64,000 nt of DNA from the NCBI GenBank assembly GCA_035491875.1, contig DATJKB010000744.1, forward strand, positions 919 through 64,918, written 5' to 3'. Each line of letters opens with the position of its first letter. The stretch's first letter is position 1. Made by a program: the position numbers and the translations under genes. Source of the stretch: Pyrinomonadaceae bacterium. GTDB lineage: Bacteria; Acidobacteriota; Blastocatellia; Pyrinomonadales; Pyrinomonadaceae. Below the pieces are notes generated by a model. The model had not been told where the DNA came from. It was given only the letters and a program-made list of their open reading frames with translations, and ran no database searches. This document shows positions 3,174-50,586 of this stretch, one piece after another.

Positions 3174-3550
3174 ATTAGTCGGATCGTTAGAGAACTGATT
3201 GGAAACGTCCTCTTTCTCCCCTCCAACAACGTGAACGGCGCATCTAACAAGTCGTAGTACCTCGGACTACCTCCAGTTGACGCATCCCACAACCCCACTT
3301 CATCGGCCTGATCCCAGTCACCACCCGACGCACTCGGCGTCTCAAACTCCACTCCATTGCTAATCACCTTCGTCGCAGTGACCGGGAAGTTGGTGGAGTT
3401 AGCCGTGAGTGGAATGCGTGCGTAGCCGTTGCCGCTGAGTTCGCTACCTGCACCCCTAAAACCCACGTACCAGATCGCGGGCGGGGTGTAACTCGTGCCA
3501 TTGAAGTCGAGATTCAGGAAATCCGCTCCTGCGCTATCACTGATACTCAT
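3170..3550 (-). CDS. Conserved tail-associated protein of unknown function
   Basis: 126 aa with a 4-nt overlap to both neighbours. It is the first gene after the tape measure. The pattern ...WYVGF...ELSGNGYARIPL...WD..DEVGLWDA.TGG... recalls a family seen next to phage tail genes. Confidence 0.4.
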   Translation of the reverse strand: MSISDSAGADFLNLDFNGTSYTPPAIWYVGFRGAGSELSGNGYARIPLTANSTNFPVTATKVISNGVEFETPSASGGDWDQADEVGLWDASTGGSPRYYDLLDAPFTLLEGRKRTFPISSLTIRLI

Positions 3551-7953: not shown

Positions 7954-9296
7954 TAGAGTGCCGTCAGCGAGTTGATCACCTCGATCTCATACGCTGCTCC
8001 ACTTGCGTGTTCAGAAGTGAAATCCGCATTGTGCAGCGAGTTAAAGTTAAACTTGTAACCAAACACTCCATTTGCATCTTCCTGCTTCTCGGGATTACCG
8101 AACTTCGCCGCGACATCGACGCGGATCGTCTCATTGTTCACGCCGACATCAATCTCATTCCCAGTTGCGAGTAATCTCACCCACTTCCACGGGTTGGTCT
8201 TCACCGCATTGTACAGCGCGCGGGACTGAGCGTTGTGTGGAGTAGAGAATGAGCAAGTGACATCGGCAGCGATTCGCACGGTTGACTGGAACGAATCGTA
8301 GTCGGTGTTCAATGCCCAGAAGGGTTGCACTTTGTCTCCGATGCGAAAGTCGCCTGCGTAGGCTTGTGCAACTTTGGTTGTGCCGATTGCGCCAAACGTA
8401 TCGTTGACAAAAATATCCACATGCATACGACTGACGGGGGATTGTGCAATTGAGCTAATGTCCGCTCCACCTGCAATCGCAGTCGCAACGACGTAAGTCC
8501 CACCCCCAGTCAATCCAGTTGAGTCCACCGTGATCGCGCTGACATTTGTCCCCTTCAACGTGCCTTGGAAGATGATCGTAATAGGAGTCGTCGAAATCGG
8601 CCCGCCACTAACTACTACGTCTCCCGGAGCGAGATTGGAGAGGGCGATGAGTGCAGCCTGAATCTCAGCCGCGGTCGCGTCGAAGTCGATGGCTGAAGTA
8701 GTCTGAGCGGAGTAAGTGATCGTGAAAGTTCCAGCAGTGACAGTGCCGGACTTAGTAATCGTCTGCTCCTCGTCGGTTTTTGTCGTAAGCGGCTCATTAT
8801 CCACCGGAAAGCGCGCGAACAAATTGCCCGTCATATTCGACGCATCGTTCGTCCACTCCAAGCCGAACGAGGAGAATTTCAACCCTTCCCCAACCTGTAC
8901 CGCATCGCTATCACCTTCCTCGATCGTGAATGACTTAGGCAAAGGATCAGCCCCGGACGACACTGGTGCAAATAACCAGCTCCGCGCATTCGTCGCTCCA
9001 ATCGGAGTCGCAGGCTCACTTGCAGTCTGCAATCCAATCAGCCCACTCAACGGATAGATCACTTGATTGTAATCAGCGATTCCATTCCACGTTCCATTCG
9101 CCCACATCTTTTGCGGGACGGAAGTGGTAGGAATATTGAACCCGCGCGCACGGAACAGTTGAAACTCAGCCTGCGGGTTGAGCGAGATGTTCACGCCGGG
9201 TAGTCGTCGAGTAGCCGCAACTCTTACTCCGTAATCATGCTCAACACCAATTTGCAGGATCGTATCAACTGCCGCTCTAACATCAAGTAGGGCCAT
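7953..9296 (-). CDS. Major tail (tube) protein with inserted display-type domain
   Basis: 447 aa, located between the tail terminator and the chaperone genes. A central ~95-aa insert (TFTITYSAQTTSAIDFDATAAEIQAALIAL...) is shared with two head-proximal proteins. Confidence 0.6.
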   Translation of the reverse strand: MALLDVRAAVDTILQIGVEHDYGVRVAATRRLPGVNISLNPQAEFQLFRARGFNIPTTSVPQKMWANGTWNGIADYNQVIYPLSGLIGLQTASEPATPIGATNARSWLFAPVSSGADPLPKSFTIEEGDSDAVQVGEGLKFSSFGLEWTNDASNMTGNLFARFPVDNEPLTTKTDEEQTITKSGTVTAGTFTITYSAQTTSAIDFDATAAEIQAALIALSNLAPGDVVVSGGPISTTPITIIFQGTLKGTNVSAITVDSTGLTGGGTYVVATAIAGGADISSIAQSPVSRMHVDIFVNDTFGAIGTTKVAQAYAGDFRIGDKVQPFWALNTDYDSFQSTVRIAADVTCSFSTPHNAQSRALYNAVKTNPWKWVRLLATGNEIDVGVNNETIRVDVAAKFGNPEKQEDANGVFGYKFNFNSLHNADFTSEHASGAAYEIEVINSLTAL

Positions 9297-23590: not shown

Positions 23591-26500
23591 CTAATTCAGC
23601 CTTGCTCGTTCGATTCTCGTCATTCTGTCACTCGGCGGCACTACAATTCCTGTTCGTTTAGCTGGGATCGTCACCCTCGCGCGGGATGGTACTACAATAT
23701 GTCGTTTAGCGCTAGGGGTGTAGGGATAGCGGAGGTCGAAATAGTGGTCAGTAAGTGTGATCGTATCGGTGAGTTGCAACTCGATGCGTAGTTCATTGCC
23801 GAGCGAGATCGAGATCGCGTCGGTCAGTAGCAACGAATCACTCGGCGCCTCGTCCAAGTCCGGCCCGCGCAGGTCAATGGCGACACTGTCTGAGATGACG
23901 AGCGTGTCGTCGAACTCAATGAACCCAGCGCTGAACTTCGCGAGCGAGTCAGTGAGTGCGAGCGCGTCGCTGAGTTGAAGCTGGCCTGTACCAAACAAGG
24001 AAACTGAGTCAGTGAAGATTGGCCCATTATCCGCGATAATCAGGGTTAGACCAGGGGTAAACAGGGCGGAATCAGCTAATAATGCAACATTATCCGCAAG
24101 TGAGAGGATGTGGGTGAGAGTGGTGGTGGACGAGTCGGTGAGGGCGATCGAATCAGACGTAGCGAGTTCGTAACCCAATTGCAACTGAACACTATCGGTG
24201 AGTGTGAGTGAGTCAGCAAGAGACTGATTATAGCTGAGTGTCGTTGCGATGGAATCCGTCAGCGTAAAACTATCAGCGAGTTGCGTGCGATATGACAGGT
24301 TGAGTTGTACGTCATCAGTTAGAGTGAGGTTGTCCGAGAACGCGAGATTGTAACTCACACGCAGGGAGATATTATCGCTGAGCGAGAGCACATCCGCATT
24401 CGCAATCTCATAACCCACCTGCAACTGGATTGAATCACCGAAGACGAGAGCGTCAGTCAGTGGGAGCAAGTGGTTCAAAGTGGGAAAGATCGAGTCCGAG
24501 AGTGCGAAGAGATCGCTAAAGGAAGTTCGCAAACCTTCGATCAATGCCGAGGAATCGTCGAGATTCGCCACCGTGTCGGCGACGGAGAGCAAGTAGTCGA
24601 GTCTGAGTAAAACTTCATCAGTGAGCGGTGTAAGCGCATCTGTCACGCCAACCTCGCGCAACGGCCCCTGTGGCGCACTAGTGAGGATGTCGTCCATGAG
24701 GAAACTGGCGTCGTCGGTGAGAGCGAGGCCATAGCCGAGGACGAGGGAATCGATTAACGTGATGGAGTCACTGAAGCTCAGTACTTCGCCAAGCGTGAAA
24801 GTGAGTGAATCGCTGAGAGTGTTGAGCGAGTCGGTAAAGGTTAGCCGTTGTTCAAGTCGCTGCGTCTCATTATCGAGAAGATTGTCGATTGAGTCGGCGA
24901 ATTGCAGCTCATAGGCGAGTCGGAGCGAGACGTTGTCTGCGAGAACTAGCGAATCACTGAAATTGAGGAGTTCGTTAAGTCTGACTGAGATCGAGTCGGT
25001 AAAGGTTGCAACGTTATCCGTGAATAGTAGTCCGAAGCCGAGTGCGACCTCGTCAGTAAGGACGAGTAGGTCTGAGAAAGCGCGCAACTGGTCTAGTCGA
25101 TGTGACTCAGCGTCCGTGAGCAGAAGTGAATCACTCGCGCTCTCTGCATAGCCGAGGGTGATGACAACGCTATCAATAATGATGAGTGAATCGCTGAAGT
25201 CGAGTAAGTGATCGAGTTGCGTGGAGATCGAGTCAGTAAGAATCGCAGCAGTATCTGCGAAAATTAACCCAATACCCAACGCAAGTGAGTCAGTGAGTGT
25301 GATCGTCTCCGTGAAAGTGAATCGATAACTTAGCTCGTTAGTCTCCGCGTCAGTCAGAACGAGAGTGTCAGTCGCTTGTTCCTCGTAGCCTAGTGTCGTT
25401 AACTCACTGTCGGTGAGAGTGAGCGAGTCGGAGAGTGCTGCTAGCTGGCCCAACTGGAGACTGACACTGTCATTAAACGACTGGAGCGAGTCGGAAAATT
25501 GGGCGAGATAGCCGAGTTGAACCGCAACGCTATCAGTGAGCGAGACTGAATCAACGCAACTCAATCCATGTCCCAGCGCGCACGAATCATCCAGTGACAG
25601 TTGATCGTCTAGCTCCAGCTCCAGCACGCTGCTGATGACATGCAGGTGGAGAGTGAAGGCGTCAGTGAGAGCGAGAGAGTCTGAAGTACGCAACTCTCCG
25701 TCACTGTGCAGATTGAGAGTCTCGGTCAGTGCATCCAGCGCCTCTGTTATCAGCAACCCGTAACCAATCGCGAAAGGCGTAGTCGCACCCTCTTGAACTT
25801 GAGAGATTGATAAATGCGCAATCGCCGAATCGCCACTGTCGAACGTTCCATTGATGGCGATCCGCAATATCGTCGAGGTAAAGACGTGCTCGACAGTGGT
25901 ATTGTTCGCAGGCCAATTAGCGGCGGTATGGATCGTCCCCGTGGCGTCGGCGAATTCTCCGGCGTTGGTATCTATCGGGCTAAAGGTAATGAACGGCGTG
26001 TTGTTGTCTCGTACTTCAATATAGCTCCGCGCACTGGCGCTGAAGTCACCAATAGCCAGACCGACGCGATACGTACCAGCGGTAGGAAGATCGAGACGGA
26101 AGACGTACGTAGCCTCTTCTTCGTTAGTAGCAAGGTGCGCTCCGGCCAGTCTCGGATCAGTGCCAGTGGAGCGATCGACACGGGCTATTCCCGGTATTTG
26201 ATAACCGAAATTAAAGTCATCCCGGGTAACAGGATAGGTATTCGATAGTACGTAGGTCTGATCTGCGCCATCGGTGACGAAGGTAGAAGTGGAGCGAAAG
26301 TTGAATCCGTGCGTTAGCTCGGGAATCGAGTCCGATAGAGTGATTAAGTCTGAAAAAGCAAGCTGGATAGTAACGAGGCGAGATTCATCGTCCGTGAGCG
26401 GTTCGAGTGAATCGGTGAGGGCGAGAGTTATGCCAAGTTGGATAGTTGCGGCATCAGCCGTGTTGAATGAGTTGTCTGCGAGCGCCAGTCGTTGCGAGAG

Positions 26501-27451
26501 GAGGAGTTGATGCGAGTCGGCCCAGTTAGCAGCTTCCGTATCAGCGAGCGCAAGTAAGTAGCCAAGTAGTTGTGCATTCGCATCTGAGAGTGCAGCGAGA
26601 GTATCGGCGAGAGTTGTTTGAGTGCCGAGGAGACGCGCTTCTCCGTCAGTGAGGGTTACTGTGTCAGTCGCAGCGACACTGTAGCCGAGGACGATTTGAG
26701 CAGTGTCAGTGAGAGCGTTGAGCGTGTCCGCGTGGAGATTGCCATAACCCAGCCCACGCGCATCAGCGAGATTATTGACATCGTCCGAAGCTGACTGCGT
26801 GAGCGGCACGGTAATGTCGATCTCCATCGCGTGCGCGCAGAACTGGGTGGATGACGCTGCCCCAAAAGTGATCGTCGTACCAGTGAAGCCTGACGCACGT
26901 GAGGCGGATTCAAGGGCAACTGTGTCATTAATCTGGCTCGTGTCGAGAATTTCAGTCCAGTTAGTCGGGGGAGTTGTCGTCGTGTCGGCTGAGCCTTGCG
27001 CGACGAGTGTGCCGTTGTTGGTGAGCGCGGCTTGATTCAGGGTTGGAGCCGCAGTCCCAGCCGCTTGGTTGTTCTGCGATCCTTTGCTACGGACTGCGTT
27101 TGCTCCGGTGCGTGTGACTCCCGTGCAGGGAACGACGTGGATCGTGCCGGAGGTGTTGCTGCCAGTTGCAACTGTGATCGTCGTCGCAGTCGTATTCACC
27201 ATCAAGGCCGTGCGAATGAACACGCTGAGTCGATAGTTCACTGTGGAGATAGCAAAGTTGAGCGTGTCGATGAGGTCGTAGGTGCCGGAATTGTCGTCTG
27301 AGCAAGTGGGAGTGTCGTTCGTGTTCGCGGCGACGCAACAGTAGACGACGACGAGATCTCCCACTGCCGGAGTGAAAGTCGCAGTGCGATTCCCCGTGCC
27401 GGAGGACGAGCCACCAGATGCTACCCCAGCCGTGCGTACCGCGAAGGCCAT
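23591..27451 (-). CDS. Giant repeat protein (1286 aa): N-terminal globular domain, central beta-sandwich-like domain, ~40 copies of a 20-aa SDSLxLTD repeat; probable fibre/host-recognition protein
   Basis: Single long ORF. Residues 1-215 are Thr/Ala/Gly-rich and globular. Repeats occupy residues 222-378. A non-repetitive domain occupies 383-560. Repeats occupy 585-1236. The C-terminal tail is basic. Confidence 0.8.
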   Translation of the reverse strand: MAFAVRTAGVASGGSSSGTGNRTATFTPAVGDLVVVYCCVAANTNDTPTCSDDNSGTYDLIDTLNFAISTVNYRLSVFIRTALMVNTTATTITVATGSNTSGTIHVVPCTGVTRTGANAVRSKGSQNNQAAGTAAPTLNQAALTNNGTLVAQGSADTTTTPPTNWTEILDTSQINDTVALESASRASGFTGTTITFGAASSTQFCAHAMEIDITVPLTQSASDDVNNLADARGLGYGNLHADTLNALTDTAQIVLGYSVAATDTVTLTDGEARLLGTQTTLADTLAALSDANAQLLGYLLALADTEAANWADSHQLLLSQRLALADNSFNTADAATIQLGITLALTDSLEPLTDDESRLVTIQLAFSDLITLSDSIPELTHGFNFRSTSTFVTDGADQTYVLSNTYPVTRDDFNFGYQIPGIARVDRSTGTDPRLAGAHLATNEEEATYVFRLDLPTAGTYRVGLAIGDFSASARSYIEVRDNNTPFITFSPIDTNAGEFADATGTIHTAANWPANNTTVEHVFTSTILRIAINGTFDSGDSAIAHLSISQVQEGATTPFAIGYGLLITEALDALTETLNLHSDGELRTSDSLALTDAFTLHLHVISSVLELELDDQLSLDDSCALGHGLSCVDSVSLTDSVAVQLGYLAQFSDSLQSFNDSVSLQLGQLAALSDSLTLTDSELTTLGYEEQATDTLVLTDAETNELSYRFTFTETITLTDSLALGIGLIFADTAAILTDSISTQLDHLLDFSDSLIIIDSVVITLGYAESASDSLLLTDAESHRLDQLRAFSDLLVLTDEVALGFGLLFTDNVATFTDSISVRLNELLNFSDSLVLADNVSLRLAYELQFADSIDNLLDNETQRLEQRLTFTDSLNTLSDSLTFTLGEVLSFSDSITLIDSLVLGYGLALTDDASFLMDDILTSAPQGPLREVGVTDALTPLTDEVLLRLDYLLSVADTVANLDDSSALIEGLRTSFSDLFALSDSIFPTLNHLLPLTDALVFGDSIQLQVGYEIANADVLSLSDNISLRVSYNLAFSDNLTLTDDVQLNLSYRTQLADSFTLTDSIATTLSYNQSLADSLTLTDSVQLQLGYELATSDSIALTDSSTTTLTHILSLADNVALLADSALFTPGLTLIIADNGPIFTDSVSLFGTGQLQLSDALALTDSLAKFSAGFIEFDDTLVISDSVAIDLRGPDLDEAPSDSLLLTDAISISLGNELRIELQLTDTITLTDHYFDLRYPYTPSAKRHIVVPSRARVTIPAKRTGIVVPPSDRMTRIERARLN
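23744..25699 (-). repeat. In-frame tandem ~60-nt (19-21 aa) repeats, block 2
   Basis: Unit consensus: [ST]D[ST]LxLTD + 12 residues with alternating hydrophobics (for example SDSLTLTDSELTTLGYEEQA, TDTLVLTDAETNELSYRFTF). It includes a ~79-aa four-unit super-repeat duplicated at 24899..25375. Confidence 0.85.
26318..26788 (-). repeat. In-frame tandem ~60-nt repeats, block 1
   Basis: About 8 more degenerate units of the same family (ADTLNALTDTAQIVLGYSVA, TDTVTLTDGEARLLGTQTTL, others). Confidence 0.7.
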
Positions 27452-29738: not shown

Positions 29739-29766
29739 CGTCGTCGCTCCATTTTAATCGTTGTTA

Positions 29767-29868
29767 GGTGTCCCGCCGACGCGGACTCGAACCGCGATCC
29801 CTTAGTTCCGTTTTACGGAGCACCTGACTGGCAGGCGGCGTCTTCCTCTTTGCACACAGCAGCGAGAC
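29767..29868 (-). ncRNA. tRNA-like element forming the 5' leader of the small-gene operon
   Basis: It has a canonical T arm, CGCGG-TTCGAGT-CCGCG (29796..29780). GTCTCGC (29868..29862) can pair with GCGGGAC (29776..29770), and ACC follows. Internal hairpins lie at 29821..29837 and 29807..29819. It does not fit a standard cloverleaf. Confidence 0.35.
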
Positions 29869-29875
29869 GGGGATT

Positions 29876-29905
29876 AGAATAGCCCGTTCCACAAGATATT
29901 GTCAA
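29876..29905 (-). promoter_or_regulatory. Sigma70-type promoter TTGACA-N18-TATTCT
   Basis: On the minus strand: -35 at 29905..29900 and -10 at 29881..29876. The predicted start is about 29869, at the 5' end of the tRNA-like element. Confidence 0.5.
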
Positions 29906-29908
29906 CCC

Positions 29909-29950
29909 GAGAAGATTACAGGGCGAGCAGCTTACCCTAGCCACCCGCCC
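29909..29950 (-). terminator. Terminator-like 12-bp hairpin after the tRNA cluster
   Basis: On the minus strand: GGGCGGGTGGCT-AGGGTA-AGCTGCTCGCCC (with G-U pairs) followed by TGTAATCTTCTC. The U tract is only moderate. Confidence 0.45.
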
Positions 29951-29958
29951 CATTGAGT

Positions 29959-30031
29959 TTGCGATAGCAGGAGTCGAACCTGCGACCTCAAGATTATAAG
30001 TCTTGCGCTCTGCCAGTTGAGCTATGTCGCG
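29959..30031 (-). tRNA. tRNA with anticodon UAU (Ile, AUA), class I
   Basis: Fold: D arm GCTC-AACTGGCA-GAGC, anticodon arm CAAGA-CTTATAA-TCTTG (anticodon 29998..29996), variable AGGTC, T arm GCAGG-TTCGACT-CCTGC. Acceptor CGCGACA/TATCGCA has two C-A mismatches (1-72 and 6-67). A73. No encoded CCA. Confidence 0.7.
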
Positions 30032-30083
30032 GTTTTGATCATCTATATCCGTGTCCGGCTTGCCATTGCGCTAAGTTTCAATG

Positions 30084-30168
30084 TCCCATGTTCTACCGCT
30101 GAACTACGGACGCATAAGTAATATTTGGAGCGTCCGGTGGGAATCGAACCCACGCATAGGACTGTTAG
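30084..30168 (-). tRNA. Split, circularly permuted tRNA-like gene (Gly-type acceptor): 3' half - 12-nt linker - 5' half
   Basis: The 3' half (30168..30126) has a T arm GTGGG-TTCGATT-CCCAC, then CGGACGC-T-CCA. The 5' half (30113..30084) is GCGTCCG-TA-GTTC-AGCGGTA-GAAC-A-TGGGA. The acceptor strands are 7/7 complementary and the anticodon-stem strands TGGGA/TCCTA pair. Confidence 0.45.
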
Positions 30169-30274
30169 TTTTGCTTTAGCTTACCTTCATTCAGATAGTG
30201 ATCGGTTTAAGATTCTGTGGAATAGGTTGATTCTCATGTTCAGCCTAAGCCTCAGATTAAAACTTCCACACTCG

Positions 30275-31006
30275 CTAGCCTAACACGTATTCAAATAACG
30301 TGTCAGCGATCTTTTGCCTCGGAGCTTCGACCTCGTTGGCCTTGCCGCGTGCTAACTTGACCGCGCTAAGCAGTTCCTCAATCTTCGTAATCAGTTCCTC
30401 TTTCTGCGGCACGGGAAGCGCCGCCGACAGCTTAGTCTGGTCCCAGTAGCCGACTGTTACGTCTTTAGTTAGTTGGGCCACCTGAGCCGGGTGTTCCTTC
30501 GTCGCTTCTGAGACAGTCTTAAAGTCAACTATCTTCTCGGTACGGTGGCGAGTTGTAATATCCGTACGCCACTGTCCGGTTGATGGGTCTACTTTCCACT
30601 CCTCGGATTCGTCCAACGTAGGCAGTTTCTCGACGTAGTTACGAAAGTGGTCCAACTGCTTGCTTAGGAATAGCAAATGAGTAACAGGTACCGCTATAAG
30701 AATCACCTGACCGTTAACTTCCACATCGGCCCGCGCTTCCATGTTGGCCCAGTCCTTCGTCGCAGTCAGGTCGATCAATTCAGTCTTGGCTTTGATGAAC
30801 TTGTCAATTTCTTTACGCGCGTCTAACTGTACTCGCTTATGTTCAGGAGGTAGCGGTTCACCGCCTTCGTCCTTTGGTCGATACGTGCGAGCTAGTCCGT
30901 TAAACGAATCGGGCTTTAACGCTTCCCGTTCCAGCATTGCGGTGACAGATCCTATCTTGTTCTTCGCGTCTTCTTCGATAGCGATGATTTGATGTAGTTT
31001 TGGCAT
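30275..31006 (-). CDS. Conserved hypothetical protein (243 aa)
   Basis: Track ORF 30275..31018 (TTG start). ATG 31006, behind GGAGAAGGA, is preferred. The protein is helical and charged. No motif assigned. Confidence 0.6.
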   Translation of the reverse strand: MPKLHQIIAIEEDAKNKIGSVTAMLEREALKPDSFNGLARTYRPKDEGGEPLPPEHKRVQLDARKEIDKFIKAKTELIDLTATKDWANMEARADVEVNGQVILIAVPVTHLLFLSKQLDHFRNYVEKLPTLDESEEWKVDPSTGQWRTDITTRHRTEKIVDFKTVSEATKEHPAQVAQLTKDVTVGYWDQTKLSAALPVPQKEELITKIEELLSAVKLARGKANEVEAPRQKIADTLFEYVLG

Positions 31007-31039
31007 TTCCTTCTCCAACGATTAAGATTTAGAAAAGGA

Positions 31040-31068
31040 ACAATACACTGTGCACAACATCTTGTCAA
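31040..31068 (-). promoter_or_regulatory. Sigma70-type promoter TTGACA-N17-TATTGT
   Basis: On the minus strand: -35 at 31068..31063 and -10 at 31045..31040. It drives the 30275..31006 gene. Confidence 0.5.
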
Positions 31069-32044: not shown

Positions 32045-32468
32045 AGAACTAAGTGGAAGAGAGCTTGAGCTTGAAGTAGCAAAGCGCGTCTTTAACTTTC
32101 GTTGGTTTCATTGCGAGGCAAATGAAGTCGAGCGTAACCAGTTTCTCTCACCGGGGACTGCGGAAGTATGGCGCGAACTGGGATGGGTCTTGACTGAAAT
32201 CGATGGAATGCAGGACGATCAGTTCAACGATGACATTCCGAAGTTTGCCAGATCCATTGAAGCTGCAATGCGGGTAGTTGAGAAGATGCGGGAACAGGGC
32301 TGGTCATTCGCCTGTACGTTGTACGAAGGAAAGTTGCCTTACGCATCATTCTGCAAGGGCACAGTGAAGTCGAGCAGGAATGCCGAGGCCGAGTCACTCG
32401 CGGAAGCAATCTGTCTCGCCGCTCTAGCCGCTATCGAATCTACGCATACAGCACCCGTCTCGGCCTGA
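32037..32468 (+). CDS. Phage ABA-sandwich-domain protein
   Basis: 143 aa. LSGRELELEVAKRVF..W near the N-terminus and SIEAAMRVVEKMREQGW...AESLAEAICLAALAAIE match the pattern of this phage family. The gene converges on the terminase gene end. Confidence 0.5.
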   Translation: MSEELSGRELELEVAKRVFNFRWFHCEANEVERNQFLSPGTAEVWRELGWVLTEIDGMQDDQFNDDIPKFARSIEAAMRVVEKMREQGWSFACTLYEGKLPYASFCKGTVKSSRNAEAESLAEAICLAALAAIESTHTAPVSA

Positions 32469-34839
32469 TGCTGGCTCCGTGCCATGCGAGGGCGAGGCTG
32501 ATGACGCAATTATGGACCACGATGCCATTCGCTATAAATGATCTATCTTCGGCAACTTGAAGATTATAGACCGTGCCTTCAAATTGCCGTTCGGCAATAG
32601 TCTCCACGGGAGAGCCGTAACTAACCGGAGAGAGCTTTCGGGAATGATTATTCTCGGAACCGTCTTCTTTTATCGTAACCCAATATTGAGGCTTAGTAGA
32701 CTTTTCGTAACGCCGCCGCTCATATTTTCTTACCGTTGCGTATAGCCCATTTGCGAGAGCTAGATCTCGCATTCCTAAAGCCAGTCGCGCACTTGTGGTC
32801 GCACCTATCGTGTAGCCGGGAGACTGAACCGTAACGCCGTTCGGTTGCGTTACGTGTGGAGGACGGTGCCAACCATCGCCAGCCAACCATTCATCTACCA
32901 CTGTTTTACCGTGAACTTGTAAACGGTGAAAGTAAGGCGGGAGCTGTTTCTCGCCGGAGGATGAATAACAGGTCTTCAGGGCATGCCATAATAGCTTACT
33001 GGAAAACGTTAAGGCCACGCAGTTACTTCGCGCCTTCTCCGCTCTATTAGAAATTCTCAGCAAGTTGAGATAGTAGCGAAAGTACTCAATCGAATGCACA
33101 TCTTTAACGTTAAATGCGAGGCTCATGGTCCAGCCCGAAGAATTGGAACAGTGACCATCGGCAAGAAAGCGCCCGAGCAAGCTTGCAAATCCTTCATCAA
33201 GTTGCAGTTCTCGCAACTTGATATTCACCGCGCATTTCCCATTGGTGTAAAACTCACGTTCTGTCAGTACATCGCCAACACGCAGTACTGGAGATTCAAC
33301 TACCGTTACCGCACGGTAAGATTTACGCCAGTCGCCCGGTAATACCCACTGCTCGCGTGTAAATGGACCAGAGACATCGCCGGTGTAGTCGCGGCAGACA
33401 GCCAATATTGGGTGATTGTGGCTCAGCGACAGTTCTAGCTGATTTCTAAATTTACAATCATAAAACAGGCCCGAGAAGGGCTTGGTAATCGCCCTCTCTA
33501 CGGGCATATAGCGACCGCGATGAGTAAGCACCTGATCACCGGGTTGGACTTCTTCAATTGGACGATAGCCAGTCAATGTTTTAATCAGCGTTCCCTGCGG
33601 CAAACAGTCATCGTGATAACCTTCCGGGCTCGAATATCTCAGCATCCCACTCGGCAATCTCTCAGCTTCATAGGCTTGCAATTCAGCAATCAGTACTGGG
33701 TTATCAATTATGCGCAAATCGCCTTTCTCCAACGCAAGCGCGAGCGAGTCTATCGCTTCAGCTTTAGACGCATTCGTGGTCGTAAATGGGTGGACGTTGT
33801 AGCCTTCACGCTGGAGTTGCTCAATCAGCGGAATGCCGATGGAGTTGTGCTCAGGGATGAGAGTCTTCGTCTTAAACTTCGTGGCGAGCGTGCGCAACCT
33901 CTCAATCTGCACGGTGTAGTCGATCTGATTGAAGCGATCCACGTAGACCAACTCCTTCGTCGTCACGTCAATTACACTCAGCACCGTGAAATCGTTATAC
34001 TTGCCCCAGTCGATTCCGATCAGGTAGTTATGTCCATCGAGGGCTGAGTCTTGAGCAGTGGCACAAGCTGATTCGAGCACTCGTCTAAACACTCCACCCG
34101 CGTCGTCGATGAACTCAGCCAGATACTCTTGTCGAAAGATGCGCTCCGGCAGTTCCAATCGCGCCGCTTCGATCTCTTTGTCGAGATCGGTGAGGGTAGT
34201 ATTGACCGACGACGGCATCTGCCACGAGCGCCATTCGTCTTTGAGTGGATCTTGTCCCCAGTTGTAGATCGTGCGGAAAAAGTTCGAGCCACGTGGAGTG
34301 GAGAGGAACCACGCATCACCTTGATAGTCAGTGAGAGTGGGTCGAATTGACGCTTGCCATGCATCTCCCAGATAACGCACGAGGGCTGCTTCGTCAACGA
34401 TCACCAGCTTGTACTTGCGACTTCTACCTGCGTCGGGATTGTCCAGCGACCAGCACTCCAGCACCCCTTTCGTCGAGAGTTCCAGTCGATGCTCCTGCGT
34501 GGATTTGTCCACTGTCACTGGAGCGAACACTCGTTGTAAGTCGCGCCAGCTATCTGCGAGAATCTTGTATGAGGGTGCGAACCACCCGACAGGCCAACCC
34601 GCCATGAGATAGTCGCCACTGACATCCTGACCGAATACTGACTTACCCGCGCGTCGGCCTAACGCAGCAACATTGAACCTGCGCGCTTCAGCTTTCATCT
34701 TCTTCTGCGCTTCGTGAAGAGCGGGACGAATCAACCCGCCGCCCTTGAGTCGCTGTCGCCGCGCATCCTCCAGCTTGTCCTCGATGGGCCAGAGGTGCTT
34801 GAGACGGAGGGATGGTGGGAGATTGAGATCGTCGCTCAT
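32440..34839 (-). CDS. terL: Terminase large subunit interrupted by an intein
   Basis: 799 aa. Walker A GRRAGKS and Walker B KLVIVDEA are present. The nuclease domain motifs run ...IGIDWGKYNDF... and end at GYHDD, where the intein begins. The C-extein resumes CVISLALAW. Confidence 0.9.
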   Translation of the reverse strand: MSDDLNLPPSLRLKHLWPIEDKLEDARRQRLKGGGLIRPALHEAQKKMKAEARRFNVAALGRRAGKSVFGQDVSGDYLMAGWPVGWFAPSYKILADSWRDLQRVFAPVTVDKSTQEHRLELSTKGVLECWSLDNPDAGRSRKYKLVIVDEAALVRYLGDAWQASIRPTLTDYQGDAWFLSTPRGSNFFRTIYNWGQDPLKDEWRSWQMPSSVNTTLTDLDKEIEAARLELPERIFRQEYLAEFIDDAGGVFRRVLESACATAQDSALDGHNYLIGIDWGKYNDFTVLSVIDVTTKELVYVDRFNQIDYTVQIERLRTLATKFKTKTLIPEHNSIGIPLIEQLQREGYNVHPFTTTNASKAEAIDSLALALEKGDLRIIDNPVLIAELQAYEAERLPSGMLRYSSPEGYHDDCLPQGTLIKTLTGYRPIEEVQPGDQVLTHRGRYMPVERAITKPFSGLFYDCKFRNQLELSLSHNHPILAVCRDYTGDVSGPFTREQWVLPGDWRKSYRAVTVVESPVLRVGDVLTEREFYTNGKCAVNIKLRELQLDEGFASLLGRFLADGHCSNSSGWTMSLAFNVKDVHSIEYFRYYLNLLRISNRAEKARSNCVALTFSSKLLWHALKTCYSSSGEKQLPPYFHRLQVHGKTVVDEWLAGDGWHRPPHVTQPNGVTVQSPGYTIGATTSARLALGMRDLALANGLYATVRKYERRRYEKSTKPQYWVTIKEDGSENNHSRKLSPVSYGSPVETIAERQFEGTVYNLQVAEDRSFIANGIVVHNCVISLALAWHGASIRPRRVLYA
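32509..33606 (-). mobile_element. Intein (366 aa) with LAGLIDADG-type homing endonuclease domain
   Basis: It starts CLPQGTLIKT at residue 412 (codon 33606..33604 is TGT). It ends ...ANGIVVHN (codon 32511..32509 is AAT), followed by Cys+1. Internal LLGRFLADGH and DEWLAGDGWH resemble the two LAGLIDADG motifs. Confidence 0.8.
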
Positions 34840-39831: not shown

Positions 39832-39920
39832 GCTGGCGTAGCACAATGGCAGTGCGGCGGACTTATAATCCGTAAGCCCCGGATTAGGGCGTGATGAAGG
39901 TTCGAGTCCTTCCGCCAGCA
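39832..39920 (+). tRNA. Class II (long variable arm) tRNA with anticodon UAU
   Basis: Fold: acceptor GCTGGCG/CGCCAGC 7/7, D arm GCAC-AATGGCA-GTGC, anticodon arm GCGGA-CTTATAA-TCCGT (anticodon 39864..39866), T arm GAAGG-TTCGAGT-CCTTC. The variable region is 22 nt with a GCCC/GGGC stem. A73. No encoded CCA. Confidence 0.75.
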
Positions 39921-48725: not shown

Positions 48726-49006
48726 GCAGAGAAACGCTACTAAAGGATGACGACGGCGAGGTTTATTCACTGGACAATCTCGCCACGCAAAAGTGGCTGG
48801 ACGGTCATTACAGTGGCTTGGATGATTGCTGCGCTTATCTGGAAAAGAAAGCAACGCAGTTGTTTAGCCAGCGACAGCGAGACAAGGCCGTCGAGTTACA
48901 GAACCTCGCAGACGAACTGAAGAAGGAACTTCGGCCCGCAATGGTGAAGCGGGCGAAGGAACACGAGGTCGAGTTCCCGTCGAAAGTGAAAGGCACAACA
49001 GCATGA
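48722..49006 (+). CDS. Hypothetical protein (94 aa)
   Basis: Track ORF with a GTG start. Confidence 0.45.
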   Translation: MSRETLLKDDDGEVYSLDNLATQKWLDGHYSGLDDCCAYLEKKATQLFSQRQRDKAVELQNLADELKKELRPAMVKRAKEHEVEFPSKVKGTTA

Positions 49007-50586
49007 GCACTCAATACACAATTGATGAAATCAAAGAAGGTTGTGCGCCGCTATGGGGCAACGTTGAATGTATGACGTGTTCGCGGTTGCTGAGTTACAT
49101 CGACTACTTACTCTCCCAGCTTAAAGACGGTGGAACTACGAAATGCGTTTGCGGCCATCCTAAATCAGACCACGAACTATTCAGCGACCACGATGAGTGC
49201 TTAGGCTGTCGCGGATTGGACGAACCATGTAGTGAATTCCGCGCCACCGCCCCCACCGAGACGAGTACGCGGTGCGGGGAGTGCGGGCATGAGCGGAAAT
49301 GGTCAGAGCGTAATAGTGAGATTTGCGATTACAACCTAACCGATACTGACCGCTACGTACCGTGTGGCTGCAAGTGCGTATTCCCTGCATCGACTGAACA
49401 GGCGGGGGAGCAGGTGTGCGGCTGCACGGATCACGATCCCGAAGTCTGCCTTGAGGGTGAAGTGGACGAAGGTTCGCGTTATTGTCACTGCACCTGCCAT
49501 GTTCCCGTGGGAACCACGCGCTCTAACACGATCCAATGGTGCGGCATGTGTCGCTCGCTCGATATTGTTACGGGAACTAAAGAGGGGTATCAGCTTGTCC
49601 ACGATCATGTCTTCAAGAAGTGGACGGGAACTCCGAATCTGTTGTGTTGGTGCGGGGCCGTAAGAACGCCCGAAGAAGTTGCGAGTACCGCCCCTGCTCC
49701 CTCAGTAGCGCAACCAGAAGCCGATCCTTATGAGGGCCGTAGGGTTTCAGACAGCGCTCTACGTTTAGTCGAAGAAATTAGGACGAGGCTAGCGGATTCC
49801 GGCTTCACTAATGACTTGGTATTTCAGCTAGCGGAAAATTTACTAGAGCAAGAGAGAAAACAAAAAGAACAGCGTCAGTCAGCGGGCCATACTGTCGAGT
49901 GCGATGTCTGGATTCGGGCTGACGCGATTTGCACATGCGGAGACGGCACTACTACCCCAACCACAACAGCAGTAGAAGATGTTGTTAGAGAGATTATGGA
50001 CCACTTTCTGTCAGTTGAGATTGACGAGTTACCGGATTCTCGAACAGTCCGAGCAATCCTCTCTCGTTACTTACCAGCACAGCAACCAGAAGTTGAGGCG
50101 ATGGGCCATATCACGTCGTTCCTTGATTTAACCTTCATCGCGCGTAATGGTCGCGTCATGTCCACGCCTGAAATCATCGCCAGAATCAAGGAAGTCAGTG
50201 CGGAGCTGGATCAGTTACGCGAAAGCGCGGATGAAATCGAGCGGCTTAAAGGTGAGGTAGAACGACTCACAGCCAAGTATCGCGAATACGAACAGAATTA
50301 CATTCTGCCTTGCTTTCGCTGGGCCGACGAAATCGGATTTGACTTGCGCGAAGCGGTCAAGGACAACACTGGAAAGAACTGCGTCGAGTTGCTTGTAGCT
50401 GAACTTCGCAGACGCGACACCACCGCCCGCGCTGATGCTATTGGAGAGTGCGCGAACGCCGTCAGGACGATGACTGATTTAGATTACAGCGACGGCGACG
50501 GATTACGAACTATCGATCCGCGCGGATTGCGGGAGATTGCAACCACGCTTGAGCAACTCAAGGGAGAGGGAAGTGAGTCAAGTTGA
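49003..50586 (+). CDS. Large Cys/His-rich protein with coiled-coil C-terminus (527 aa)
   Basis: Track ORF. About 30 Cys lie in the first 215 residues, in CxC, CxxC and CHC spacings. The C-terminal third is helical (EIERLKGEVERLTAKYREYEQ). Confidence 0.6.
   Translation: MSTQYTIDEIKEGCAPLWGNVECMTCSRLLSYIDYLLSQLKDGGTTKCVCGHPKSDHELFSDHDECLGCRGLDEPCSEFRATAPTETSTRCGECGHERKWSERNSEICDYNLTDTDRYVPCGCKCVFPASTEQAGEQVCGCTDHDPEVCLEGEVDEGSRYCHCTCHVPVGTTRSNTIQWCGMCRSLDIVTGTKEGYQLVHDHVFKKWTGTPNLLCWCGAVRTPEEVASTAPAPSVAQPEADPYEGRRVSDSALRLVEEIRTRLADSGFTNDLVFQLAENLLEQERKQKEQRQSAGHTVECDVWIRADAICTCGDGTTTPTTTAVEDVVREIMDHFLSVEIDELPDSRTVRAILSRYLPAQQPEVEAMGHITSFLDLTFIARNGRVMSTPEIIARIKEVSAELDQLRESADEIERLKGEVERLTAKYREYEQNYILPCFRWADEIGFDLREAVKDNTGKNCVELLVAELRRRDTTARADAIGECANAVRTMTDLDYSDGDGLRTIDPRGLREIATTLEQLKGEGSESS

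What the first reader, a model, noticed from the sequence alone, without database searches (positions are those of the whole stretch)
30084..30168. Apparent circularly permuted (split) tRNA: the 3' half with encoded CCA lies 12 nt upstream of its own 5' half
On the minus strand, 30168->30126 reads CTAACAG-TCCTA-TGC-GTGGG-TTCGATT-CCCAC-CGGACGC-T-CCA. That is an anticodon-loop-like heptamer, a 3' anticodon-stem strand, a canonical T arm, a 3' acceptor strand, U73 and an encoded CCA. After a 12-nt linker (AATATTACTTAT), 30113->30084 reads GCGTCCG-TA-GTTC-AGCGGTA-GAAC-A-TGGGA. That is a 5' acceptor strand, a D arm and a 5' anticodon-stem strand.

GCGTCCG/CGGACGC pair 7/7 and TGGGA/TCCTA pair 5/5 with one G-U. 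The two pieces are therefore halves of one cloverleaf, but in the order 3' half, linker, 5' half. I find no D arm upstream of the 3' half. I find no T arm downstream of the 5' half, only a weak CGGACAC at 30051-30057.

G1-C72, C2-G71, G3-C70 plus U73, and the GTTCAGCGGTAGAAC D arm, are tRNA-Gly-like. This gene order is known for permuted tRNA genes of the red alga Cyanidioschyzon. It is also known for permuted two-piece tmRNA genes of alpha-proteobacteria and some cyanobacteria. I am not aware of it in a phage tRNA cluster. The element sits directly upstream of an ordinary-looking tRNA and is probably co-transcribed with it. Where the anticodon loop is closed remains unresolved.
Basis: partly seen in the sequence, partly recalled or inferred. 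Interest (0 to 1): 0.8.

Follow-up and report, generated by a model that had tools for sequence, protein, structure and literature searches.

The report
tRNA-mimic RNA beside DUF7873 gene
The "back-to-front tRNA" is real, but it is the tRNA-shaped head of a ~170-base non-coding RNA of the Y-RNA-like (YrlA) design, which always follows a gene of unknown function (DUF7873) in many phages and bacteria; I found no description of that pairing.

Summary
On the minus strand, 30168-30084 holds a T arm, a 3' acceptor strand plus TCCA, a 12-nt linker, a 5' acceptor strand and a D arm, in that order.

It is not a decoding tRNA. The two "anticodon-stem" strands continue into a long closing helix (whole RNA about 30203-30037), and there is no anticodon loop. 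This is the known layout of YrlA, the bacterial Y RNA described as resembling a circularly permuted tRNA. YrlA is also the best Rfam match, but below threshold (34 bits against 69).

Covariance models find the element after DUF7873 in 157 of 168 loci searched. Stems covary, and the tertiary 15-48 pair covaries without exception (149/149). No Ro/Rsr gene lies nearby. The Ro-binding motif is absent.

The acceptor stem is almost always 7 bp. The loop starts N-C(CA), usually has U before G+1, and ranges from 5 to 104 nt. This predicts RNase P cleavage into a two-piece RNA, as shown experimentally for M. smegmatis YrlA.

Verdict: a new variant of a known kind, most likely the RNA partner of DUF7873.

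The parts
31040..31068 (-). Promoter-like site (TTGACA-17-TATTGT) upstream of the DUF7873 gene. Candidate start of the DUF7873-ncRNA-tRNA transcript.
   Evidence: consensus match only
30275..31006 (-). DUF7873 (PF25283) gene, 243 aa from the ATG (the listed ORF reaches a TTG at 31018). It is the only conserved neighbour of the RNA.
   Evidence: Pfam E 7e-87. Identical to P0001. It is the only protein family shared by 84 bacterial and 85 viral loci.
30204..30269 (-). Leader between the stop codon and the tRNA-like RNA, conserved in sequence across the phage clade. Possible hairpin. Possibly a remnant of the bacterial 'type A' element without its tRNA-like head.
   Evidence: Alignment A6: near-invariant, no covariation. 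Weak nhmmer link to the type A 3' flank of L011, E 0.005. Tentative.
30037..30203 (-). Whole tRNA-like ncRNA ('type B' element): closing stem plus tRNA-shaped head.
   Evidence: R1 96.8 bits, E 7e-20, model positions 1-159. Rfam YrlA full-length match 30064-30183, 34.3 bits.
30198..30203 (-). Outer helix P1, 5' strand (GATCAC).
   Evidence: Pairs with 30042-30037. 4 of 6 pairs change compensatorily in the phage clade.
30163..30180 (-). P2 5' strand (GCTAA, tentative) and conserved internal loop AGCAAAACTAACA.
   Evidence: Sequence conserved in 6/6 phage relatives. Pairing register not supported by covariation.
30157..30162 (-). P3 5' strand (GTCCTA), the analogue of the 3' strand of a tRNA anticodon stem.
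   Evidence: Covaries family-wide, e.g. ATCGACG/CGTCGAT and GCCGTCG/CGACGGC.
30154..30156 (-). Variable-loop analogue TGC. C30154 is the counterpart of tRNA C48.
   Evidence: Levitt pair with G30099. 15-48 is G-C or A-U in 88/88 and 61/61 elements.
30137..30153 (-). T arm: GTGGG-TTCGATT-CCCAC.
30130..30136 (-). 3' acceptor strand CGGACGC.
   Evidence: 7/7 complementary to 30113-30107. Stem is 7 bp in 73/76 and 58/61 distinct elements.
30126..30129 (-). Discriminator U plus encoded CCA, at the start of the acceptor loop.
   Evidence: TCCA in 6/6 phage relatives. NCCA in 20/24 non-actinobacterial and 28/61 viral elements. The C after the discriminator is present in 76/76 and 55/61.
30114..30125 (-). 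Remainder of the acceptor loop (AATATTACTTAT), variable except for the U at -1. Candidate intervening segment removed after RNase P cleavage.
   Evidence: Loop length ranges from 5 to 104 nt across the family. U(-1) in 21/24 and 41/61.
30107..30113 (-). 5' acceptor strand GCGTCCG. G+1 is the predicted RNase P site.
30090..30106 (-). U8-A9 and D arm GTTC-AGCGGTA-GAAC (A14 = 30100, G15 = 30099, G18 G19).
   Evidence: D stem was never a selection criterion, yet is 100% paired with compensatory changes. A14 invariant in 149/149.
30083..30088 (-). P3 3' strand TGGGAC.
30070..30082 (-). Conserved internal loop ATTGAAAC and P2 3' strand TTAGC (tentative).
   Evidence: GGACATTGAANCTTAG conserved in 5 of 6 phage relatives (L097 has GGCATTGAATCTTAG).
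30037..30042 (-). Outer helix P1, 3' strand (ATGATC). It ends 5 nt before the downstream tRNA.
29959..30031 (-). tRNA(UAU) directly downstream. RNase P cleavage at its 5' end would also create the ncRNA's 3' end.
   Evidence: ARAGORN and Rfam tRNA, 66.4 bits. A homologous tRNA follows the element in all five phage relatives and in several Acidobacteria.
29921..29951 (-). GC-rich hairpin after the tRNA, the likely terminator of the unit. Relatives have a T tract after it; the window's tail is T-poor.
   Evidence: Not called by the strict terminator scan.

Best explanation
Window 30203-30037 (minus strand) encodes a structured non-coding RNA of about 167 nt. Its 5' and 3' ends pair into a long stem interrupted by internal loops (P1, P2, P3). 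The tip of that stem is a complete tRNA body without an anticodon loop: variable loop, T arm, 7-bp acceptor stem closed by a loop, then D arm. This is the architecture of YrlA-type bacterial Y RNAs.

The RNA belongs to a large family that always lies just downstream of a DUF7873 gene, in tailed phages (often inside their tRNA arrays) and in many bacteria. I found no description of this family.

Proposed working, with the status of each step:
1. DUF7873, the RNA and the following tRNA are made as one transcript (inferred).
2. RNase P cutting at the 5' end of the downstream tRNA releases the RNA's 3' end (inferred).
3. The RNA folds into a tRNA L-shape (shown by covariation, including the tertiary 15-48 pair).
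4. DUF7873 binds the conserved stem and internal loops, as Ro binds the Y RNA stem, so that the tRNA-shaped head can engage tRNA-recognising factors (inferred from strict co-occurrence only).
5. In this phage the acceptor loop is probably cut by RNase P at G30113, and the upstream piece is trimmed to ...U-CCA. That gives a two-piece RNA held together by the acceptor, P3 and P1 helices (inferred from sequence signatures and from the M. smegmatis YrlA precedent).

It does not decode codons.
For: Architecture. The best Rfam match is YrlA over its full length, T arm then closed acceptor hairpin then D arm inside a stem. The same is seen for Streptomyces copies.

Structure.
- 27-sequence alignment: 22 of 23 pairs change on both sides, 87.8% paired against 67% in shuffles and 33-46% in slid controls.
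- Phage clade, fetched by protein only: 96% paired, and outer helix P1 is compensatory.
- Tertiary Levitt pair 15-48 is G-C or A-U in 88/88 and 61/61 elements, and A14 is invariant. Neither was part of the model.

Linkage to DUF7873.
- R1 finds a full-length element after DUF7873 in 88 of the 90 sources searched (window and 89 fetched loci), on the same strand in all but L015.
- In viral loci it finds a full-length element in 69 of 78 with room, and a partial one in 7 more.
- It finds the element in cultured phages Phendrix and Racecar, in gaps left unannotated in GenBank.
- There are no full-length hits elsewhere in about 1.7 Mb searched; the only off-site hits are weak partial matches (mostly 17-35 bits), largely at junctions of adjacent tRNA genes.
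- DUF7873 is the only protein family shared by the loci.
- A model built from bacterial seeds alone finds the window element at E 7e-11.

No anticodon loop. The flanks form P1 and conserved internal loops.

RNase P and CCA signatures. 7-bp acceptor stem in 73/76 and 58/61. N-C always or nearly always. NCCA in 20/24 non-actinobacterial and 28/61 viral elements (1/64 expected by chance). U(-1) and G(+1) predominate. Loop length 5-104 nt. The two tRNA genes in the window do not encode CCA, so the CCA in the element is not a local habit. Precedent: M. smegmatis YrlA, the one characterised YrlA with a 7-bp acceptor stem, is cut by RNase P and receives CA in vivo, and both halves stay in the RNP (PMC4201824).
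Against: - There is no expression, end-mapping or binding data, so every processing and RNP step is inferred.
- The YrlA model scores only 34.3 bits against a gathering score of 69.
- The DUF7873 model (pLDDT 82.5) matches no known fold, RNA-binding or otherwise.
- A host Rsr encoded elsewhere could still be the partner.
- About 11 kb of the 75-kb contig lies outside the window.
- The seed elements of alignment A2 were picked with a filter that required T-stem and acceptor pairing. Their 100% pairing in those two helices is partly by construction. The independent sets remove most of this concern but not all.
- In Actinobacteria the loop is only 6-9 nt and lacks CCA, so cleavage may not be universal.
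Confidence: 0.75

Rival explanations
1. It is an ordinary YrlA Y RNA whose partner is the host's Ro60/Rsr protein, encoded elsewhere. The adjacency to DUF7873 would then be incidental, or would reflect a third component.
For: Same architecture, and YrlA is the best Rfam match. YrlA RNAs are known in phages, and Y RNAs lie next to tRNA genes in some bacteria (PMC4201824; 10.1101/312249). A subset of Streptomyces copies carries GACGAACG, which fits the Ro motif GNCGAAN0-1G.
Against: - Score is half the gathering threshold.
- The Ro motif is absent from the window, from all phage relatives, and from about 74 of 88 elements at the homologous position.
- No TROVE protein is found in the window, in the 8-10 kb flanks of three bacterial loci, or as a recurrent neighbour in 169 loci. 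Published YrlAs lie within 4 kb of rsr on the same strand.
Confidence: 0.12
2. It is a cis-acting 3'-UTR element of the DUF7873 mRNA. The tRNA-like structure would recruit RNase P to define or stabilise the mRNA 3' end, as mascRNA does for MALAT1, and would have no function of its own in trans.
For: It is on the same strand and usually 50-300 nt after the stop codon. No promoter-like site lies between the gene and the RNA in the window. The RNase P-type signatures are present.
Against: - A closing stem of 30-40 nt per side with conserved internal loops is not needed for a processing signal.
- In L009 the element lies 1.5 kb downstream, and in L015 it is on the opposite strand.
- A permuted tRNA would be cut inside the element, not at its 5' edge.
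Confidence: 0.07
3. It is a true circularly permuted or split tRNA gene, whose transcript is circularised or ligated and re-cut to give a decoding tRNA.
For: The 3' half precedes the 5' half. The rejoined halves make a perfect cloverleaf. CCA is encoded. The element lies beside a tRNA.
Against: - There is no anticodon loop. The flanks form conserved helices and internal loops that covary.
- The sequences next to P3 differ completely between clades, so no conserved anticodon exists.
- Acceptor identity pairs are not conserved.
- No RtcB- or Rnl-type ligase was found in the window.
- From my own knowledge: bacteria lack the splicing endonuclease used for permuted tRNAs.
Confidence: 0.03
4. It is a two-piece (permuted) tmRNA, or the junction or remnant of two tandem tRNA genes.
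For: The order of the acceptor pieces matches permuted tmRNA genes. There are weak partial matches to beta_tmRNA (18.2 bits) and tmRNA_permuted (16.2 bits). Junctions between adjacent tRNA genes do give weak hits to the model.
Against: - ARAGORN, which detects permuted tmRNA, reports none.
- The matches cover only the T arm and acceptor and are far below the gathering scores of 84 and 47.
- There is no conserved tag reading frame downstream (the sequences differ among relatives), no G3-U70 pair, and the D arm is canonical.
- Against remnants: the two acceptor strands pair with each other and covary. There is no D arm upstream and no T arm downstream.
Confidence: 0.02

Closest known systems
YrlA (Y RNA-like A; Rfam RF02553; Chen et al. 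2014, PMC4201824; crystal structure in Wang et al. 2018, 10.1101/312249)
   Same: - Modular ncRNA: the 5' and 3' ends form a stem, and the tip is a tRNA mimic in the order variable loop, T arm, closed acceptor stem, D arm.
- No anticodon loop.
- Conserved U8-A9, A14, GG and TTCRA loops, and the Levitt pair.
- Found in bacteria and phages, sometimes next to tRNA genes.
- Explicitly described as resembling a circularly permuted tRNA.
   Different: - Scores half the Rfam gathering threshold.
- Lacks the GNCGAAN0-1G Ro-binding motif.
- Is not near a Ro60/TROVE gene, but always follows DUF7873.
- Acceptor stem is almost always exactly 7 bp, with an N-C(CA) start and a loop of very variable length. 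Most YrlAs have stems judged to be poor RNase P substrates.
- Bacteria usually carry two different tRNA-like elements in tandem (A and B).
Mycobacterium smegmatis YrlA (the RNase P-processed YrlA)
   Same: 7-bp acceptor stem. Cleaved by RNase P at the position equivalent to tRNA +1. The upstream piece ends in an encoded C plus an added CA. Both halves stay associated. The actinobacterial DUF7873-linked elements show exactly the 'N-C then non-CA' pattern.
   Different: That RNA is encoded beside rsr and was shown to bind Rsr. Here processing is only predicted, and in the window the full CCA is encoded.
Two-piece (circularly permuted) tmRNA of alpha- and beta-proteobacteria and some cyanobacteria
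   Same: Gene order is T arm, 3' acceptor strand, CCA, intervening segment, 5' acceptor strand. Maturation removes the intervening segment and leaves two base-paired RNAs.
   Different: No tag reading frame, no pseudoknots, no G3-U70 pair. A full D arm and an anticodon-stem analogue are present. No SmpB-type partner is indicated.
Permuted tRNA genes of Cyanidioschyzon merolae and other algae (my own knowledge)
   Same: The 3' half is encoded upstream of the 5' half. The ends of the precursor pair with each other.
   Different: Those mature into normal decoding tRNAs through a circular intermediate made by the splicing endonuclease and a ligase. Here there is no anticodon loop, the paired ends are conserved and covary as part of the mature fold, and the enzymes are not bacterial.
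Other tRNA mimics released or recognised by RNase P (mascRNA/MALAT1, viral tRNA-like structures)
   Same: A tRNA-shaped module used for something other than decoding. Recognised by tRNA-processing enzymes.
   Different: Those have the normal 5'-to-3' order with free acceptor ends. They have no dedicated adjacent protein gene.

Membership tests
YrlA / bacterial Y RNA (RF02553) | tRNA-like module in the order variable loop, T arm, loop-closed acceptor stem, D arm, enclosed by a stem formed from the RNA's two ends | tested here: met
   Full-length alignment to RF02553. Helices supported by covariation.
YrlA / bacterial Y RNA (RF02553) | tRNA tertiary signature: Levitt pair, U8-A9, A14, D-loop GG, T-loop TTCRA | tested here: met
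   15-48 is G-C or A-U in 149/149 elements, A14 in 149/149. In the window: G30099-C30154, A30100, TA 30106-30105.
YrlA / bacterial Y RNA (RF02553) | GNCGAAN0-1G motif near the 5' end (presumed Ro60/Rsr contact) | tested here: not met
   Absent from the window and from all phage relatives. Present at a homologous position in only about 14 of 88 elements, all Streptomyces.
YrlA / bacterial Y RNA (RF02553) | Encoded within about 4 kb of a Ro60/TROVE gene, on the same strand | tested here: not met
   No TROVE hit among the window's large ORFs. None in the flanks of L005, L086 or L088. No recurrent neighbour other than DUF7873 in 169 loci. About 11 kb of the contig was not seen.
YrlA / bacterial Y RNA (RF02553) | Score at or above the Rfam gathering threshold (69 bits) | tested here: not met
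   34.3 bits in the window. 34.5 and 23.7 bits in Streptomyces L020. No family reached its gathering score over the elements of 11 loci.
YrlA / bacterial Y RNA (RF02553) | Physical binding to Ro60/Rsr | not testable with these tools
   Needs immunoprecipitation.
Circularly permuted tRNA gene (algal type) | 3' half encoded upstream of the 5' half of one cloverleaf | tested here: met
Circularly permuted tRNA gene (algal type) | Joining the precursor ends recreates a 7-nt anticodon loop with a conserved anticodon | tested here: not met
   The flanks of P3 continue into internal loops and helices P2 and P1. The sequences flanking P3 are unrelated between clades.
Circularly permuted tRNA gene (algal type) | Processing machinery available (splicing endonuclease acting on a bulge-helix-bulge motif, plus an RNA ligase) | tested here: inconclusive
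   No RtcB or Rnl family hit among 20 large ORFs of the window. Host genes cannot be examined.
Two-piece tmRNA | Tag-peptide reading frame with a resume codon, and pseudoknots in the coding piece | tested here: not met
   ARAGORN reports no tmRNA. RF04321 scores 16.2 bits against 47 and RF01850 18.2 against 84, each over the T arm and acceptor only. The downstream sequence is not conserved as an ORF.
Two-piece tmRNA | G3-U70 alanine identity pair in the acceptor stem | tested here: not met
   The window has G-C at that pair. Across the family it is GC 22, UA 2, AU 1, CG 1, GU 1 (columns 75/117).
DUF7873-linked tRNA-like RNA (family proposed here) | Full-length match to model R1 or R2, immediately downstream of a DUF7873 gene on the same strand | tested here: met
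   Window 30037-30203(-): R1 96.8 bits. R2 (no phage seeds) 51.6 bits, E 7e-11. The gene at 30275-31006 is DUF7873.

The most novel reading that the evidence does not exclude
DUF7873 and its downstream tRNA-shaped RNA(s) form a widespread ribonucleoprotein that does not depend on Ro and has not been described. It is present in hundreds of bacterial species (Streptomyces, Acidobacteria, Deinococcota, cyanobacteria and others), in at least 237 IMG/VR viral contigs and in 75 cultured phages, where it often sits inside tRNA arrays.

The RNA would be cut by RNase P inside its acceptor loop to give a two-piece molecule with a genuine N-CCA 3' end. That end could be aminoacylated, or targeted by enzymes and toxins that recognise the tRNA 3' end. 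The bacterial 'type A' copy has a tRNA-Leu-like D arm and an A discriminator.

The module would therefore act in tRNA metabolism or in phage-host conflict over tRNAs, rather than as a passive tether.
Probability: 0.35. Interest if true: 0.85.

Novelty: new variant of a known kind. Interest (0 to 1): 0.65.

Why it matters
Y RNAs are understood only as partners of Ro60. It remains an open question why the bacterial ones mimic tRNA so closely, and what binds the tRNA-shaped head. Here the same permuted-tRNA design is tied to a different, uncharacterised protein family, with no Ro gene nearby, across many phyla and in many phages.

If DUF7873 is the partner, tRNA-mimicking RNPs are a broader class than Ro/Y RNA. 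DUF7873, a domain of unknown function, then gains a concrete and testable hypothesis.

The near-universal 7-bp acceptor stem, the N-C(CA) start and U(-1) make the family a natural test of whether such mimics are generally matured by RNase P into two-piece RNAs with tRNA-like 3' ends. That has so far been seen in one mycobacterial YrlA.

Practical points:
- The element lies in 400-500-nt gaps left unannotated in GenBank genomes of cultured phages (Gordonia phage Phendrix, Arthrobacter phage Racecar), so experiments are feasible.
- Annotation pipelines are currently blind to it.

Tried and rejected
- BLASTN of the locus and megablast of 24 kb against GenBank phages found only generic tRNA similarity, or nothing.
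- A single-protein scan of IMG/VR with DUF7873 found nothing. The profile scan worked later.
- Exact-pattern scans for the conserved loop sequences (GGACATTGAANCTTAG in IMG/VR; AAAGCRAAACTRACAG-TCCT in JGI metagenomes) returned only chance matches.
- Single-sequence MFE folding of the region misfolds the T arm and is not significant (z = -1.5). Folding of 29740-29960 is also not significant.
- DUF7873 protein: PDB sequence search gave nothing below E 0.17 (the weak RelA/SpoT-type hits, about E 0.2, are treated as noise). Foldseek against PDB and BFVD gave nothing significant (best were Cas7-like chains, E about 0.01, TM 0.13). PHROGs, PADLOC and NCBIfam gave no hits.
- Literature searches for DUF7873, PF25283, permuted tRNA in phages and tRNA-like ncRNAs found nothing on this module.
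- The P2 helix (GCTAA/TTAGC) could not be confirmed. Relatives suggest a different register, so it is listed as tentative.
- The idea that the conserved leader (30269-30204) is a 'type A' element that lost its tRNA head rests on one weak nhmmer hit (E 0.005) and on no covariation. It is left open.
- Scanning all neighbouring ORFs against Pfam for TROVE was too costly (313 ORFs). I replaced it with all-against-all clustering of neighbours.
Full report
**1. Observation**

The order is: GTCCTA (30162-30157), TGC, T arm GTGGG-TTCGATT-CCCAC (30153-30137), CGGACGC (30136-30130), TCCA (30129-30126), a 12-nt linker, GCGTCCG (30113-30107), TA, D arm GTTC-AGCGGTA-GAAC (30104-30090), A, TGGGAC (30088-30083).

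ARAGORN and the Rfam tRNA model find no contiguous tRNA over either half. They find only the tRNA(UAU) at 29959-30031 and an 89-nt tRNA at 39832-39920. If the two halves are rejoined in silico through any 7-nt loop, ARAGORN calls a canonical 73-nt tRNA. So the two pieces are a complete tRNA body encoded in permuted order.

**2. Context**

The window is a tailed phage. It has a large terminase with an intein, a portal, a capsid protein, a prohead protease, a D5-type primase/helicase and a PolA. The source contig is 75 kb and was binned with a Pyrinomonadaceae MAG.

The element lies in a 540-nt intergenic region. Its layout is: DUF7873 gene (30275-31006, Pfam PF25283, E 7e-87), a conserved 66-nt leader, the element, tRNA(UAU), a GC-rich hairpin. 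After that come a promoter-like site and the next gene.

**3. First lead**

A permissive Rfam scan of the region gave a full-length match to YrlA, the bacterial Y RNA-like family, at 30064-30183(-). It scored 34.3 bits, E 1e-5, against a gathering score of 69. The T arm, a loop-closed acceptor hairpin and the D arm aligned inside an enclosing stem.

YrlA RNAs are tRNA mimics. [quoted passage not shown] They occur in bacteria and in phages that encode Ro60 (PMC4201824).

**4. Relatives**

The neighbouring protein has about 2,500 relatives at 90% clustering. Contigs encoding the closest ones (75-82% identity: L001, L002-4, L097, L098, L099) were fetched through the protein alone. All carry the same element at the same place.
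- The acceptor stem changes compensatorily in every one: GCGTCCG, GGCCCCG, GGAGCCG, GCAGGCG, TGGGGCG, GCGGGCG.
- The T stem, D stem and P3 also covary.
- An outer helix formed by the extreme 5' and 3' ends covaries too. It is GATCAC/ATGATC in the window, GGTTGC/GCAACC in L001 and GGTCGT/ACGACC in L098.
- On this six-sequence alignment 96% of cells pair, and 15 of 29 pairs change on both sides. Slid controls pair at 31-51%.

The RNA therefore spans about 30203-30037, and the stem that looks like an anticodon stem (P3) is an internal helix. It is conserved in sequence in all six relatives, and so (with one variant, L097) is GGACATTGAANCTTAG on the other side. There is no anticodon loop.

**5. 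Family-wide picture**

Eighty bacterial loci encoding DUF7873 were fetched from GTDB representatives. They include Streptomyces, Kitasatospora, Acidobacteriota, Abditibacteriota, Myxococcota, cyanobacteria and Clostridia. At least 583 loci matched in total.

A simple pattern search already found a T arm followed by a perfect 7-bp hairpin within 800 nt downstream in 82 of 86 loci. There are two kinds:
- 'Type A' comes first and has a tRNA-Leu-like D arm and an A discriminator.
- 'Type B' has a TAGTTCA-type D arm and a U or G discriminator. The window's element is type B.

A covariance model of type B (R1) found a full-length match in 88 of the 90 sources searched. Every match lies just after DUF7873, on the same strand in all but L015. 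The other hits are weaker partial ones that correspond to type A. In 80 IMG/VR viral loci (237 matched), R1 found a full-length element 112-761 nt after the gene in 69 and a partial one in 7. Two of the four loci without a hit have no sequence left after the gene.

Seventy-five cultured phage genomes encode DUF7873, annotated as 'hypothetical protein'. In Gordonia phage Phendrix and Arthrobacter phage Racecar the gene sits inside the tRNA array and is followed by an unannotated 400-500-nt gap. That gap holds the element (83.8 and 73.8 bits).

A second model built without any phage sequence (R2) recovers the window element at 51.6 bits, E 7e-11. It is the only significant hit in the 64 kb.

**6. 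It folds like tRNA**

On the 27-sequence seed, 22 of 23 pairs show changes on both sides. One caveat applies: T-stem and acceptor pairing were my selection criteria for those seeds. D-stem and P3 pairing were not.

Stronger evidence comes from the tertiary Levitt pair, which is not part of either model. The nucleotide just before the T stem (position 48) and the second D-loop nucleotide (position 15) are G-C or A-U in 88 of 88 elements, and in 61 of 61 distinct viral elements. There are no exceptions. A14 is invariant in all of them. In the window these are C30154, G30099 and A30100.

**7. Not a Ro-type locus**
- No TROVE or RtcB family is found among the window's large ORFs.
- None is found in the 8-10-kb flanks of Deinobacterium, Streptomyces or Blastocatellia loci.
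- All-against-all clustering of ORFs shows that DUF7873 is the only protein family shared by the 84 bacterial or the 85 viral loci. The next real clusters reach 14 and 4 loci.
- The presumed Ro-binding motif GNCGAAN0-1G is absent from the window and the phage clade. It occurs at a homologous position in only about 14 of 88 elements.
- No Rfam family reaches its gathering score on these elements.
- The paper library holds nothing on DUF7873 or PF25283.

The AlphaFold model of DUF7873 is confident (pLDDT 82.5) but matches no known fold.

**8. The acceptor loop**

Across 76 distinct type B elements the acceptor stem is 7 bp in 73. The nucleotide after the discriminator is always C.

Outside Actinobacteria:
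- the loop starts N-CCA in 20 of 24 (1/64 expected by chance);
- it has U at -1 in 21 of 24;
- it has G at +1 in 23 of 24;
- it ranges from 5 to 104 nt.

The independent viral set gives a 7-bp stem in 58/61, NCCA in 28/61, U(-1) in 41/61, G(+1) in 54/61 and loops of 7-88 nt. All six members of the window's clade have TCCA, whereas the window's two ordinary tRNA genes do not encode CCA.

From my own knowledge, a 7-bp acceptor stem stacked on a T arm, U(-1), G(+1) and a 3' RCCA are the determinants of bacterial RNase P cleavage. Chen et al. showed that M. smegmatis YrlA, which has a 7-bp stem, is cut by RNase P in vitro and in vivo. The upstream piece receives CA, and both pieces remain in the RNP. 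The actinobacterial pattern here (N-C followed by something other than CA) matches that case.

I therefore predict that the window RNA is cut between U30114 and G30113 and trimmed to ...UCCA. This step is inferred, not shown.

**9. Verdict on the interpretations**
- A decoding permuted tRNA is disfavoured. There is no anticodon loop, the flanks are conserved and paired, no anticodon or identity set is conserved, and there is no ligase in the window.
- Two-piece tmRNA is rejected. There is no tag frame, no G3-U70 pair, no ARAGORN call, and only partial weak Rfam matches.
- Remnants of tandem tRNAs are rejected, because the two acceptor strands pair with each other and covary.
- The element works like a YrlA. 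It fails three of the testable defining features of that family (score, Ro motif, Ro adjacency) and meets the two structural ones.
- I file it as a new variant of the YrlA-type tRNA mimic, whose likely partner is DUF7873.

**10. Limits**
- There is no expression or binding evidence.
- The function of DUF7873 is unknown.
- A host Rsr encoded elsewhere cannot be excluded.
- The P2 register and the nature of the conserved leader remain unresolved.
- Model E-values are rough because calibration was shortened.

Noticed in passing
window 29959-30031 (-); L001 6993-7065; L002 6976-7048; L097 3182-3257; L098 1807-1879; L099 1839-1911; L008, L010, L014, L016, L017: The tRNA directly 3' of the element has a homologous body in all relatives (GCGAC[AG]TAGCTCA...ATCGCA, anticodon stem mostly CAAGA/TCTTG, weak or mismatched 1-72 pair). 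The anticodon is different in nearly every one: TAT, ATT, TGA, GAA, CAT, TGT, and GAA, GAA, GAG, GTT in Acidobacteria. It looks like an anticodon-switching tRNA scaffold co-transcribed with the DUF7873 module. The TGA version lacks the long variable arm that SerRS needs.
   Followed up: partly
window 39832-39920 (+): A second tRNA with anticodon TAT. It is 89 nt long with a long, class II-like variable arm (Rfam tRNA 67.7 bits). A similar 92-nt tRNA(tat) occurs in viral locus L149 (1674-1765). A class II body with an Ile(AUA) anticodon is unusual and could mean non-standard charging.
   Followed up: no
bacterial loci, e.g. L020 6843-6957, L022 6866-6929, L010 6827-6895, L005 about 8848-8930: Most bacterial and many viral DUF7873 loci carry a second, different tRNA-like element ('type A') between the gene and element B. 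It has a tRNA-Leu-like D arm (TGGCGGAA..GGCAGACGC or TAGCCCAA..GGCAGAGGC), an A discriminator that is often ACCA, flanks rich in CTGA/TCAG repeats, and in Acidobacteria an extra hairpin after the D arm. The window lacks its tRNA-like head.
   Followed up: partly
window 29780-29796 (-), within 29773-29838: An isolated T-arm-like hairpin, CGCGG-TTCGAGT-CCGCG, followed by TCGGCGGGACACC. It lies in the leader of the next gene, downstream of a promoter-like site (29905-29876). There is a weak mascRNA-like Rfam hit (17.5 bits, E 1). No partner acceptor strand was found, and models R1 and R2 do not hit it.
   Followed up: partly
window 32440-34839 (-): The large terminase subunit (Terminase_6N) is interrupted by an intein (Hint_2 and Intein_splicing domains). 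Relative L001 has an intein signature in its UDG/PolA-like gene instead.
   Followed up: no
window 56336-59011 (+): A single 891-aa ORF fuses a uracil-DNA glycosylase-superfamily domain, a 3'-5' exonuclease and a family A DNA polymerase.
   Followed up: no
L121 2476-2873; L160 5707-5780, 6322-6396, 7032-7434; L152: In jumbo-phage contigs DUF7873 lies among large tRNA arrays (28 tRNAs in 8.7 kb in L152). It also lies near phage-encoded tmRNAs. L160 additionally has two tRNAs with anticodon TCA, which are opal-suppressor or SeC-like.
   Followed up: no
L182 (Arthrobacter phage Racecar) 4741-5151; L183 (Gordonia phage Phendrix) 4735-5243: GenBank annotations of cultured phages leave a 400-500-nt gap after the DUF7873 'hypothetical protein' inside their tRNA arrays. 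The tRNA-like RNA lies there unannotated.
   Followed up: yes
window 49003-50586 (+), 23591-27451 (-), 3547-7059 (-): Three large ORFs (527, 1286 and 1170 aa) have no Pfam hit. The 527-aa and 1286-aa ORFs also have no PHROGs or PADLOC hit, and the 527-aa ORF has none in NCBIfam.
   Followed up: no
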